A stretch of 64,000 nt of DNA from Saccostrea cucullata (Eukaryota), in NCBI RefSeq assembly GCF_032062105.1, contig NW_026930592.1, positions 248,001 to 312,000 on the forward strand. Direction: 5' to 3'. Positions within the stretch are counted from its first letter, which is position 1; the number at the start of each line of letters is the position of its first letter. Positions 3,001 through 6,000 of the stretch are shown piece after piece. A program made the position numbers.

Positions 3001-6000
3001 AACACAGTATAATGTATATACTGGTTCATGTTTCAGCAAAGTTAAGGACAGATTTCAGGATGTTAAGTTGATGTTTGAATTAAAATATCTTTTTCTCAAA
3101 CCACAGAGAAACATACTTCTCTAAACACCTTTATTCAATTGCACTAATACAATTTTAAATAATAACAAACTTTGTGAAAATCTCTGAAACTTACAGTCTC
3201 TCGATACTGCTAAGTTGACAAGTCGAGGAAGCAACTCAGGAATTCCTAAAAGTAGCTCTGTAAAGAAAAGAAATACATGTATTAACATTTTTACACAATT
3301 TTAGTAAATTAAATCCATTCCTATGTAGAAAATGAAACAAGATTTACTCTACATGAGACAACTGTATTCAAACTAACATTCCAAAATCTTTAAAATGAAA
3401 ACTACCTTGATTGATGTCTCTAACATTTACAAATCCCTTTGTTCTCTTCTGTTTGTTCTGTGCAAATACTACAACAAAAGACCAAGTGATTGAAACATTG
3501 CAAGTTTGACATTTTCAGCACCTTAATTAATGAAATAAATTGAAATAAACGATAAAATACGCAGATTTCTCTGATGACATTGAGGATACTTACATGAGGA
3601 TTTGTTTTCGTAGATATCTAGATCTGATATAGCAACAGCAAGTATGCGACAGAAGTTAGCCAGCTGCTGGTCAGTCAATGATTGGATCAAGGGGCGAATA
3701 TTCTCTACAAAAACATTATCATTACGTCTTGAGTACAACCTCTCTAATTTTAAACACAGCATGAGAATATAATCATGCATGATGTAAATCTGTTTCCAAA
3801 CTTTCCTTCTGCATACTTGATGTCAAAATTTGATTAGTATATTCAAATTATTTTTGACCCCTGGTGTTCCTTTTCTATAAATAGTGTATTGCTTTATTTC
3901 ATGATAAACAACACTCAAAGAAAGACTTGGATTACACTCACTGATTCTGTGAAGATCTAGGACCTCCCTCCTGTAGGAGTTTGATTTAGACTTACTGATT
4001 CTGTGGATATCTAAGACCTCCCTCCTTTAGAACGTTGATTTAGACTTACTGATTCTGTGAAGATCTAGAACCTCCCTCCTGGAGGAGTTTGATTGAGACT
4101 TACTGATTCTGTGAAGATCTAGGACCTCCCTCCTGTGGGAGTTTGATTTAGACTTACTGATTCTGTGGATATCCAAGACCTCCCTCCTGTAGGAATTTGA
4201 TTTAGACTTACTGATTCTGTGAAGATCTAGGACCTCCCTCCTGGATTGTAGCATGTCTTCAATCAGCTGACAGGCATTGATAAATGTTTTCTGGTGTGCT
4301 AACAGAGTGAACACATAATTTAGAACCTCATCGTCTGCCATCAGGATAGCGGTCACTTGTTCCCCAATGGACTTAAAAAAAATCAGTCAAAAATAACAAA
4401 AACACTCCTGAAATACTCAAAGTTACATTGTCTCCTCTTTCCAAAAATAATTTTAATGTCTTACATTTTACGGCATTGTGTAGATAATATGATACTTACA
4501 GTGACATGAAACTTGGTCAGGATTTCCAGAACCAAACTTTTAATCCTGAGGACTACTTCTGCTTCACAATACCCTACTGATAAAATAAAGCTGGAGAGTT
4601 TTTACTAGGCAAACGAATGTAAGTTAGTTAAATAATTTCACTAAGACTTATCCAACGGACTATGAACAAGAAACTTTGTACATTTATTATATTTGCTCTT
4701 GATAAAATGTGTCAAATTGAATGATTTTTTTCTCTCTTTCTGAGTTAATGTCTTAATACTTTTTGAACAGCAATTGTAAAACCACCTATTGAGAGCATGT
4801 TCACACAATCCATTGTATCTTTGTAAAAAGCTCCTCAAAACAAGGAAATGTCAACAGGAAGATTTAATCCATCTCACCTTTAGGCTTCTTGCTTGACTGA
4901 GGGAAGAGGGTGTTGAACATCAGAATCCTTATCAAGACCTACAATTTACAGAATAAATGATGCAAAAAAAAAATCTGATTAAAGACACATTCAAAGTCTG
5001 AAAGCAATTGAATAATTTCCTGTTTACCTCCACTCCTCCATGCTGCAGGAACTGAGCAGCGTATTTGTTTTGTTCTTCATCTGCCGTGGCATCATCCTGA
5101 CTTCTTCGTGGCTCAAAATTCATCAAATTCCCCAGCAATGTCTATTTAAGAGATTTGTGACAATTACAATCTAATAACCTTTTTTAAAATGGTCATTAAA
5201 ATTAAAGAAATGAATAATTATTATTCTCAATTATTATTCAAAAGCTTCATTTATCTATTTAATACAGTGAATTACAATCTAGCACGTGTATGATATACTG
5301 TATTGATCTTAGTCTGAAATTTACCTTTAGATTTTCCATGCACACATCATCTTCCCCGTTCATTTGTGCGCTGTACTGATCTAACTCTACAATAACTTCT
5401 GGTACACCCGATCCATCTCCAATGTCTTCCACAATGTGTTCTGGTAGCTTTAAAATAATTTGTAAAAGACTCTTAATAAGTGTTCCATATAAAATCCAAT
5501 TAAAATTTTGTGTAGTTCCTCACGATCTTACCCAATTTCTTATTTTTTCTCTCTTTAATTTTAACAAAATGTGTGTTTTTTTAAAACTGTATTACAAAAA
5601 ATCGACTGGACGATTTTTTTTTATTATGTAAATATCATTTTCATTACAAAAGAATTCTTAGGTCTTATTTTTTTTTTCAGTTTCATTTATCATGTACATG
5701 TCATCATTATATATATTTGAAAATCAAGCACAGATGTCTAATCTTGCCAATTTTGATTCTAGAGGAACAGGAGTTACTTTCCTGGACAAATATTTTTAAT
5801 GTTAAAATTATTTTTTCCCACAAACCTGATTTTTCAATTTCAAAAATCAACAGAATGATATTTTTTTAAATGAGGAAAAAAAAATTACAATATCTGAAGT
5901 AGAATTTTCGGCTTTCAAAATGTCATTTCTGCTAAGGTGGAGCTGTTATACAAAATGACATTTGTTATAACTACTTACTTTGAACAACACTTGAACAATT

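What the first reader, a model, noticed from the sequence alone, without database searches (positions are those of the whole stretch)
3936..4243. Minisatellite made from a TRPC4AP splice donor: six in-phase alternative donors
Seen: the last ~35 nt of an exon plus ~19 nt of intron were amplified as a 54-bp unit, which is a multiple of 3. The donors at 4211, 4157, 4103 and 4049 would add 0-3 copies of an 18-aa unit (SKSKSNSxRREVLDLHRI) in frame. The donors at 3995 and 3941 lie beyond a TAA at 4027-4029 and would give premature-stop transcripts. Inference: a possibly length-polymorphic splicing rheostat in a conserved gene.
Basis: partly seen in the sequence, partly recalled or inferred. Interest (0 to 1): 0.65.

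Follow-up and report, generated by a model that had tools for sequence, protein, structure and literature searches.

The report
Repeated splice donor in oyster TRPC4AP
A 54-base piece covering the end of one exon and the start of the next intron of an oyster TRPC4AP gene has been copied six times in a row; this kind of repeat is already known from human genes, where splicing mostly stays at the first copy.

Summary
Window 3932-4243 (gene on the minus strand) is a 54-bp tandem array of 5.8 copies with 87% matches and no indels. Its first unit is the last 32 nt of a TRPC4AP exon plus the first 22 nt of the intron. There are six donors: five read TCA|GTAAGTCT and one reads TCA|GTGAGTGT. They are in phase, and a TAA at 4027-4029 follows the fourth.

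The window comes from an oyster, not a human. The exon is 53 of 53 residues identical to Saccostrea echinata TRPC4AP-like protein.

The "splicing rheostat" reading has no direct support. Of 51 mollusc or annelid TRPC4AP proteins of at least 500 aa, 50 have the single-copy junction, including both S. echinata isoforms. No protein in two very large collections carries the repeat-encoded peptide.

The architecture is a known class: minisatellites whose first monomer spans an exon-intron boundary (human F7, 6-16, CBS, LMNB2, PDGF). In these, only the first donor is used, or the first plus two pseudo-sites (PMC1557585).

Two hints keep minor in-frame use open. One unnamed gastropod-like protein (P0036) has a 13-aa duplication of the same junction. 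The exon-derived parts of the repeat also vary mostly synonymously (4 of 5 variants). RNA-seq junction counts would decide.

The parts
4212..4371 (-). TRPC4AP exon encoding residues 160-212 of the reference protein. It is 160 nt and ends in phase 1. Its last 32 nt form the exon-derived part of repeat unit 1.
   Evidence: tblastn of P0002 against the window gives 53 of 53 identical residues at 4371-4213. AG acceptor at 4373-4372. Length.
3932..4243 (-). 54-bp minisatellite, 5.8 copies. Units start at 4243, 4189, 4135, 4081, 4027 and 3973. The order of unit types is A-B-A-A-B-A, which gives a 162-bp higher-order period.
   Evidence: TRF. Unit table and pairwise identities. The unit does not occur elsewhere in the window.
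4210..4211 (-). Donor 1 (GT), TCA|GTAAGTCT. It gives the conserved junction ...EVLDLHRI|KNIRPL with a 507-nt intron.
4156..4157 (-). Donor copy 2, TCA|GTAAGTCT. It would add 18 aa in frame.
4102..4103 (-). Donor copy 3, TCA|GTAAGTCT. It would add 36 aa in frame.
4048..4049 (-). Donor copy 4, TCA|GTAAGTCT. It would add 54 aa in frame.
4027..4029 (-). In-frame TAA created at the unit 4/5 boundary, where the other units have TAC, CAC or TCC.
3994..3995 (-). Donor copy 5, TCA|GTAAGTCT. It lies beyond the TAA, so its use would give a premature stop.
3940..3941 (-). Donor copy 6, TCA|GTGAGTGT, at the edge of the array and followed by unique intron sequence. It is probably closest to the ancestral intron start. 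It lies beyond the TAA and would leave a 237-nt intron.
   Evidence: The read-through of a related oyster's genomic ORF, P0063 (…LHRISEYTL), implies a G at +3 as in this copy.
3594..3704 (-). Next exon (K)NIRPLIQSLTDQQLANFCRILAVAISDLDIYENKSS. The acceptor ...tttttgtag| lies just before 3704.

Best explanation
This is a lineage-specific intronic minisatellite in an oyster (Saccostrea) TRPC4AP gene. Slippage or unequal exchange duplicated a 54-bp segment that happened to contain the last 32 nt of an exon and the first 22 nt of the intron. A later duplication of a three-unit block gave the A-B-A-A-B-A order.

The pre-mRNA therefore carries the authentic donor followed by five near-identical pseudo-donors. 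The functional mRNA is made from the most upstream donor (4211), which alone gives the protein conserved across molluscs. The downstream copies are mostly or wholly silent, as in the human F7, LMNB2 and PDGF minisatellites of the same build.

The period is a multiple of 3 and units 2-4 are open, so occasional use of donors 2-4 would only insert 18-54 aa into an inter-helix linker and should be tolerated. Use of donors 5-6 would give a premature stop and, by inference, decay of the transcript.

Shown: the array, the donors, the frame, the gene identity and the conserved junction. Inferred: which donor is used in this animal, the origin by slippage, and tolerance of the insertion.
For: - Array and donors.
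- Gene identity: 40 of 40 hits are TRPC4AP-type proteins carrying PF12463 (except one 302-aa fragment). The best are S. echinata isoforms X1 and X2, at 100% identity over the exon part.
- Exon map: residues 1-478 lie at 9473..92 on the minus strand.
- Junction: 50 of 51 proteins of at least 500 aa have exactly one copy...VLDLHRI followed by xN(I/L)R. All 40 hits cover only 36-52% of the exon-plus-repeat query, so none extends into the repeat units.
- No protein of 62-200 aa matches the repeat part (189 candidates, 0 hits).
- In the no-word-index search of 1.84 billion representatives (34 hits), every related hit matches query residues 1-61 only, apart from P0079, whose 3-81 stretch runs on into non-repetitive read-through. 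The hits that reach into the repeats are periodic proteins I judged unrelated: three read, three judged from the hit table.
- P0063, a genomic ORF of a 91%-identical oyster, reads ...RKEVLDLHRISEYTL then a stop. It therefore has no array-type tail after its donor. This suggests the array is young and lineage-specific.
- The units differ by substitutions (39-51 of 54 identical, no indels), which argues against an assembly artefact.
- Precedent: PMC1557585 (abstract, introduction, one results section and discussion read) describes this class. In F7 only the most upstream of 5-9 identical donors is used.
- The AlphaFold2 model of P0002 (mean pLDDT 69.7) puts residues 212/213 in a non-helical stretch between helices 186-202 and 215-221.
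- The array RNA folds no better than shuffles (z = +0.50), so there is no sign that structure masks the sites.
Against: - No transcript data from this animal were available, so the donor actually used is inferred.
- The annotated S. echinata proteins come from a record that differs from the window at several residues: 4-5 in exon 1, 2 in exon 2 and 1 in exon 5. It is therefore not shown that the annotated genome carries the array.
- In two of the five human precedents (6-16 and CBS) the first two pseudo-sites are used constitutively.
[quoted passage not shown] That is the opposite rule.
- P0036 carries a duplication of this very junction inside a protein record.
- Variants in the exon-derived codons of the repeat are 4 synonymous to 1 conservative change, against 1 to 7 (including the stop) in the intron-derived codons. 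Fisher P = 0.03 on only 13 variants. This could mean some coding constraint on the copies.
Confidence: 0.7

Rival explanations
1. Donors 2-4 are really used, so the gene makes TRPC4AP isoforms with 18, 36 or 54 extra residues. The ratio would be set by repeat number or by regulation, making a functional and possibly polymorphic splicing rheostat.
For: - The period is 54 = 3 x 18, and three further units are open.
- Donor 9-mers 1-5 are identical.
- The human 6-16 and CBS minisatellites do use the first two pseudo-sites.
- P0036 shows a 13-aa duplication-type insertion at the same junction in another mollusc-like protein.
- Variation in the exon-derived codons is biased towards synonymous changes (4 of 5; binomial P = 0.012, Fisher P = 0.03).
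- The insertion point lies in a predicted linker between helices.
Against: - 0 of 40, 0 of 189 candidates and none of the 34 hits (apart from six periodic proteins judged unrelated) carry the repeat peptide.
- Both annotated isoforms of the closest species differ elsewhere, by one Val at a CAGTAG acceptor, and not at this junction.
- Being in frame and open has a chance probability of about 0.18.
- The intron-derived codons vary freely and one has become a stop.
- The statistical hint rests on 13 variants, several of them inherited together by block duplication.
Confidence: 0.1
2. The downstream (intron-proximal) donors win. Most transcripts of this allele would then contain the TAA and be degraded or truncated, so the array is a mildly or strongly deleterious, hypomorphic allele.
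For: [quoted passage not shown]
- Donor 6 keeps what is probably the ancestral 237-nt intron.
Against: - TRPC4AP is strongly conserved: 60-97% identity to P0002 among the 38 aligned proteins.
- The coding exons in the window are intact.
- In the natural F7 case with the same architecture the upstream site wins in three cell types.
- The units have had time to diverge by 6-25%, which is hard to reconcile with a strongly deleterious allele.
Confidence: 0.08
3. The array is an assembly artefact: a collapsed, expanded or mis-joined repeat. The real genome would have one copy or fewer copies.
For: Tandem repeats are error-prone in assemblies, and no reads could be inspected. The nearest relative with a genomic ORF shows no array-type tail (P0063).
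Against: - The copies differ by substitutions in a structured A-B-A-A-B-A pattern, with no indels and no N in the window. Artefactual copies would normally be identical.
- The flanks are continuous with the exon on one side and unique intron on the other.
Confidence: 0.05

Closest known systems
Human F7 intron 7 37-bp VNTR minisatellite (Borensztajn et al. 2006, PMC1557585; abstract, introduction, one results section and discussion read)
   Same: The first monomer spans the exon-intron boundary, so the authentic donor is followed by several copies of itself that compete for one acceptor. The pseudo-sites are functional when tested but normally silent, and the most upstream site is chosen.
   Different: - The F7 unit is 37 bp (4 bp of exon plus 33 bp of intron) and not a multiple of 3. 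Here it is 54 bp, with 32 bp of exon, and in frame.
- F7 is known to be polymorphic (5-9 copies) and its splicing was measured. Here neither is known.
- F7 is a mammalian gene; this is a bivalve gene.
[quoted passage not shown] 1995). Seen only as described and cited in PMC1557585; the paper itself is not held.
   Same: A minisatellite provides multiple splice donors. The authentic donor plus the two nearest pseudo-sites are used constitutively. From my own recall, not from a call, this gives in-frame length isoforms.
   Different: 25 pseudo-sites with a much shorter unit (12 nt, recalled). Use of the extra donors is shown there by transcripts; here it is not shown.
Human CBS intron 13 31-bp VNTR, LMNB2 100-bp repeat and PDGF 81-bp intron 4 repeat (as summarised in PMC1557585)
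   Same: These are repeats that reiterate an exon/intron junction. [quoted passage not shown] LMNB2 and PDGF use only the authentic donor.
   Different: Different genes, unit sizes and copy numbers (10-20 copies). All are vertebrate.
P0036, an unnamed 802-aa TRPC4AP-type protein (source label 'jgi'), 88% identical to the Aplysia californica protein P0038
   Same: The same junction of the same gene is duplicated. It reads REVLDLHNIGMSEVVVLDLHKIANLR where relatives have one copy. The insertion is 13 aa (39 nt, in frame). It starts with Gly-Met where the normal split codon gives Ala, as expected from reading through a phase-1 donor that begins GTATG (inference).
   Different: There are two copies rather than six, and the extra copy is part of a protein record. 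The DNA could not be seen, and it is a single record (1 member).
Tandem splice sites of the NAGNAG / GYNGYN kind (title and abstract of PMC2423196 seen in the listing)
   Same: Closely spaced alternative sites give in-frame isoforms. The gene has such a site one intron upstream (CAGTAG at 4579-4574).
   Different: Those sites are a few nucleotides apart and do not arise from a minisatellite. Here the spacing is 54 nt.

Membership tests
Minisatellite whose first monomer spans an exon-intron boundary (F7 / 6-16 / CBS / LMNB2 / PDGF type) | Head-to-tail tandem array of a unit of tens of bp lying in an intron | tested here: met
   TRF: 3932-4243, period 54, 5.8 copies, 87% matches, 0 indels.
Minisatellite whose first monomer spans an exon-intron boundary (F7 / 6-16 / CBS / LMNB2 / PDGF type) | The first monomer contains the end of the exon and the authentic donor | tested here: met
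   Unit 1 (4243-4190) holds the last 32 nt of the exon that is 53 of 53 identical to P0002 residues 160-212, plus the donor at 4211.
Minisatellite whose first monomer spans an exon-intron boundary (F7 / 6-16 / CBS / LMNB2 / PDGF type) | The donor sequence is reiterated in the following monomers | tested here: met
   5 of 6 sites read TCA|GTAAGTCT and the sixth reads TCA|GTGAGTGT.
Minisatellite whose first monomer spans an exon-intron boundary (F7 / 6-16 / CBS / LMNB2 / PDGF type) | Copy number varies between individuals (VNTR) | not testable with these tools
   No reads, other individuals or orthologous intron DNA could be reached. The only indirect hint is P0063, which has no array-type tail in a related oyster.
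Minisatellite whose first monomer spans an exon-intron boundary (F7 / 6-16 / CBS / LMNB2 / PDGF type) | Splicing uses the most upstream donor only, or that donor plus the next one or two | tested here: inconclusive
   The evidence is indirect. 50 of 51 long homologues have the single-copy junction and no protein carries the repeat peptide. There are no transcript data from this locus.
TRPC4AP (short transient receptor potential channel 4-associated protein) orthologue | Collinear sequence similarity to named TRPC4AP proteins | tested here: met
   Residues 1-478 of S. echinata P0002 map in order to 14 HSPs at 9473..92 on the minus strand. The named hits are TRPC4AP-like.
TRPC4AP (short transient receptor potential channel 4-associated protein) orthologue | Pfam PF12463 domain | tested here: inconclusive
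   The nine ORF pieces between 2862 and 6721 gave no Pfam match at the cut-off. The homologues carry PF12463 as precomputed labels. The 3' part of the gene lies outside the window.
Short-distance tandem splice sites (NAGNAG / GYNGYN) | Alternative sites a few nucleotides apart | tested here: not met
   The donors are 54 nt apart.

The most novel reading that the evidence does not exclude
The exon-end/donor junction of TRPC4AP is a recurrent site of in-frame tandem duplication in molluscs: six copies here, and two copies in the protein P0036. The extra donors would be used in vivo, giving TRPC4AP isoforms with one to three extra 18-aa modules in an inter-helix linker. Weak coding constraint on the copies would explain the synonymous-biased variation. 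That would make this a natural invertebrate example of a minisatellite-encoded, copy-number-dependent isoform series in a conserved gene.
Probability: 0.12. Interest if true: 0.55.

Novelty: new member of a known kind. Interest (0 to 1): 0.27.

Why it matters
If the downstream donors are silent, this is a routine new example of a class described in human genes since the 1990s. Its main use would be as an annotation warning: gene predictors could pick the wrong donor.

If they are used, it would be an invertebrate test bed for how the spliceosome chooses among identical 5' splice sites. The literature gives opposite rules on this: upstream "scanning" in F7 against intron-proximal preference in vitro. 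It would also show how a tandem duplication can add protein modules without breaking a conserved gene.

The independent duplication of the same junction in P0036 hints that the position tolerates insertions.

Tried and rejected
- **Pfam on nine exon-sized ORFs around the array.** There were no matches at the cut-off, so gene identity had to come from homology searches.
- **Protein search restricted to the repeat-encoded residues 53-114, lengths 62-200 aa.** 189 candidates, none at E <= 0.01.
- **Representatives search.** P0070, P0089 and P0094 reach into the repeat part. When read they are periodic proteins from unnamed sources whose units share only about 7 of 18 residues with this unit. P0076, P0088 and P0093 look alike in the hit table (multiple stretches, 18-29% identity) but were not read. 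The E-values are inflated by periodicity, so I rejected all six as chance.
- **P0042, a genomic ORF covering the next exon of a related oyster.** It extends 76 aa upstream into the intron and shows no repeat unit. The frame and the ATG start limit what it can show, so it is not informative.
- **RNA folding of 3900-4260.** z = +0.50, with 67 of 100 shuffles folding at least as well. There is no structure that would mask or expose particular donors.
- **Rfam over the whole window.** 0 matches.
- **A 3' splice-site-like motif (TCCTACAG|G) at each unit boundary.** Splicing from a donor to such a site would remove 25 + 54k nt, which shifts the frame. I considered this from the sequence alone and dropped it.
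- **Microhomology at the duplication breakpoints (AATCCA in the exon and in the tail of unit 6).** The spacing does not fit the period, so I dropped it.
- **PDB sequence search with P0002.** 0 hits.
- **Literature.** The TRPC4AP plus oyster search returned 2 papers, neither relevant by title or abstract. I know of no paper on this locus from that search alone. Turri et al. 1995 is not held.
- **Orthologous intron DNA.** The only open contig collection holds bacteria and archaea, so it was not scanned. Supplementary files were not requested.
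Full report
**What is there**

Read on the minus strand, window 4371-4212 is an internal exon. Its translation, SIGEQVTAILMADDEVLNYVFTLLAHQKTFINACQLIEDMLQSRREVLDLHRI, is 53 of 53 identical to residues 160-212 of the Saccostrea echinata [quoted passage not shown] isoforms P0001 and P0002. Residues 1-478 of that protein map in order to 9473..92 on the minus strand, and the rest of the gene lies beyond the left end of the window. A few residues differ in exons 1, 2 and 5. The window is therefore from a very close relative or another haplotype of that oyster. 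It is not human: GC is 32-37%, all named hits are molluscs plus one annelid, and the window holds no N.

Every search with window sequence used one contiguous genomic translation. Full-length comparisons used the public protein P0002 as returned.

**The array**

Tandem Repeats Finder gives 3932-4243, period 54, 5.8 copies, 87% matches, no indels, score 498. It also gives a 162-bp period at 94%. The six units begin at 4243, 4189, 4135, 4081, 4027 and 3973.

Each unit has 32 nt identical or nearly identical to the exon end and then 22 nt that begin with the donor. Units 1, 3 and 6 have identical exon-derived parts, and unit 4 differs from them by one base. Units 2 and 5 share three changes. The order is thus A-B-A-A-B-A, which fits a last step that duplicated a three-unit block. 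Unit 6 loses similarity after about 43-47 nt and runs into unique intron. The unit occurs nowhere else in the 64 kb (4 matches at up to 3 mismatches, all in the array, against 0.00 expected).

The donors sit at 4211, 4157, 4103, 4049 and 3995 (all TCA|GTAAGTCT) and at 3941 (TCA|GTGAGTGT). Against the consensus MAG|GURAGU quoted in PMC1557585, each matches 6 of 9 positions, all six of them intronic. Other donors of the same gene in the window are of similar or weaker form.

**Frame**

The exon ends in phase 1 and the unit is 18 codons. Donors 2-4 would therefore add 18, 36 or 54 residues. The TAA at 4029-4027, a change from TAC at the unit 4/5 boundary, precedes donors 5 and 6. Exon lengths would be 160, 214, 268, 322, 376 and 430 nt, and intron lengths 507 down to 237 nt. 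An in-frame, open unit is expected by chance about 18% of the time.

**Is any copy beyond the first used?**

No transcript data were available, so the tests are indirect.

- (a) In one search, the exon plus three read-through units was searched against proteins of 201-2000 aa. All 40 hits cover 36-52% of the query, which is the exon part only.
- (b) In one search, the repeat part alone was searched against proteins of 62-200 aa. There were 189 candidates and no hit.
- (c) searched 1.84 billion representatives without a word index and gave 34 hits. The related ones match query residues 1-61 only, apart from P0079, whose 3-81 stretch runs on into non-repetitive read-through. Six hits reach further. 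The three I read (P0070, P0089, P0094) are periodic proteins I judged unrelated. The other three (P0076, P0088, P0093) I judged from the hit table only.
- (d) Aligning all 51 retrieved proteins of at least 500 aa shows 50 with a single-copy junction. Short fragments were left out of that count. The two fragments read, P0003 and P0004, also have the normal junction.
- (e) The two annotated S. echinata isoforms differ by one Val elsewhere, not at this junction.

**Age and distribution**

P0063 is a 98-aa genomic ORF from an unnamed source. It is 91% identical to the exon and carries the same substitutions as the transcript-type protein P0005. After the exon it reads ISEYTL and then stops. Its intron therefore starts with a GTGAG-type donor, like the window's sixth copy, and not with the GTAAGTCTAAATC tail of units 1-5.

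Genomic ORFs of other molluscs (P0064-P0067, P0072, P0085) also read through into non-repetitive sequence. This suggests, but does not prove, that the array arose recently in the window's lineage. The substitutions between units (39-51 of 54 identical) argue that the array is real and not an assembly artefact.

**Two observations that point the other way**

First, P0036 is an unnamed 802-aa protein, 88% identical to the Aplysia californica protein. It reads REVLDLHNIGMSEVVVLDLHKIANLR where all others have one copy. The 13-aa insertion starts with Gly-Met where the normal split codon gives Ala. That is what read-through of a phase-1 donor G|GTATG would give (inference; no DNA was seen). The same junction has therefore been duplicated independently, and in that record the longer form is the protein.

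Second, among units 1-5 the exon-derived codons carry 4 synonymous variants and 1 conservative variant. The intron-derived codons carry 1 synonymous and 7 non-synonymous variants, including the stop. Fisher P is 0.03, and the binomial P is 0.012 against an expected 23% synonymous. With 13 variants, some inherited together through the block duplication, this is only a hint.

**Structure**

P0002 has no solved homologue by sequence. An AlphaFold2 model built with 38 aligned homologues (mean pLDDT 69.7, pTM 0.55) is all-helical. It places residues 203-214 in a mostly non-helical stretch between helices 186-202 and 215-221, with block pLDDT of 73-85. An insertion after residue 212 would thus fall in a linker. 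That fits tolerance of an insertion, but it is an inference from a model of moderate quality.

**Comparison with what is known**

PMC1557585 (abstract, introduction, one results section and discussion read) defines exactly this class: minisatellites whose first monomer spans an exon-intron boundary, so that the donor is reiterated in the intron. It lists five human cases.

| Gene | Unit and copies | Donors used |
|---|---|---|
| F7 intron 7 | 37 bp, 5-9 copies | First donor only, although all are functional when tested |
| LMNB2 | 100 bp | Authentic donor only |
| PDGF | 81 bp | Authentic donor only |
| 6-16 | 25 pseudo-sites | Authentic donor plus the two nearest pseudo-sites |
| CBS | 15-20 repeats | Authentic donor plus the two nearest pseudo-sites |

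Against this, in vitro work with two strong sites found almost exclusive use of the intron-proximal site (PMC3413131, passages only). The oyster array meets the three structural criteria of the class (see the membership table). Polymorphism and splicing pattern could not be tested.

I found no paper on this locus: the TRPC4AP plus oyster search returned 2 papers, neither relevant by title or abstract. Turri et al. 1995 could not be read. What I say about the function of TRPC4AP in mammals would be recall, so it is left out.

**Verdict**

The gene assignment and the frame arithmetic are correct. By the conserved junction and by precedent, the most likely state is a young, lineage-specific minisatellite whose first donor makes the normal mRNA and whose other donors are silent or nearly so. 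It is a new member of a known kind, and of modest interest unless transcripts show in-frame use.

**What stayed unchecked**

- Proteins shorter than 62 aa were not searched.
- Supplementary files were not consulted.

Noticed in passing
P0036 (protein; no window coordinates): An unnamed 802-aa TRPC4AP-type protein, 88% identical to that of Aplysia californica, has a 13-aa in-frame insertion at exactly the junction studied here (REVLDLHNIGMSEVVVLDLHKIANLR). It looks like a duplicated exon end plus a read-through donor. It is 1 of 51 long homologues.
   Followed up: partly
window 4574-4579 (minus strand): The acceptor of the preceding exon reads CAGTAG, a tandem NAGNAG-type acceptor. Using CAG or TAG gives ...KPKVGYCE... 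or ...KPKGYCE.... This is exactly the one-residue difference between the annotated S. echinata isoforms X1 (770 aa) and X2 (769 aa).
   Followed up: partly
window 3705-4211: The intron is 507 nt with donor 1 and 237 nt with donor 6. Both are multiples of 3, so the exon, the array and the next exon share one reading frame in the genome. That frame is interrupted by stops at 4027-4029 and 3823-3825.
   Followed up: yes
window 19889-22096: A large composite satellite. 30-bp units (TCAAAGTGTCAAAGTTTTCGCCAAAGTTTT, with 60- and 90-bp higher orders) lie at 19950-20841 and again at 21865-22056. They are bracketed by 10-bp ACTATAGTTA arrays at 19889-19946 and 22049-22096.
   Followed up: no
window 41321-41768, 54739-55069 and 61260-61763: Arrays of 20-21-bp units. 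Those at 41321-41768 and 54739-55069 contain the palindromic core AGAGATATCTCT and recur about 13 kb apart. The array at 61260-61763 has a different unit, TGTAAACTATAGTTTACAAC. They may be parts of a repeated mobile element.
   Followed up: no
window 33808-34272, 37458-38006, 58169-58807, 60314-60817 (all minus strand); 28034-28450 (plus strand): Four ORF pieces match the secretin-family 7TM receptor domain PF00002 (E from 7e-11 to 3e-5). This suggests a tandem pair or cluster of adhesion/secretin-type GPCR genes. One further piece matches the C-type lectin domain PF00059 (E 9e-11).
   Followed up: no
window 10583-12115 (plus strand): A 510-codon open frame lies about 1.1 kb upstream of TRPC4AP exon 1, on the opposite strand. 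It has no Pfam match, and the translation is charged and of low complexity. It could be a divergently transcribed single-exon gene.
   Followed up: no
P0070 (protein): An unnamed 228-aa protein has an 18-aa period (…YRRSITDLHPAPSSQANQ…) that aligns in register with the 18-aa unit of this array at 40% identity (E 8e-16, inflated by periodicity). I judged it chance, but the equal period is curious.
   Followed up: partly
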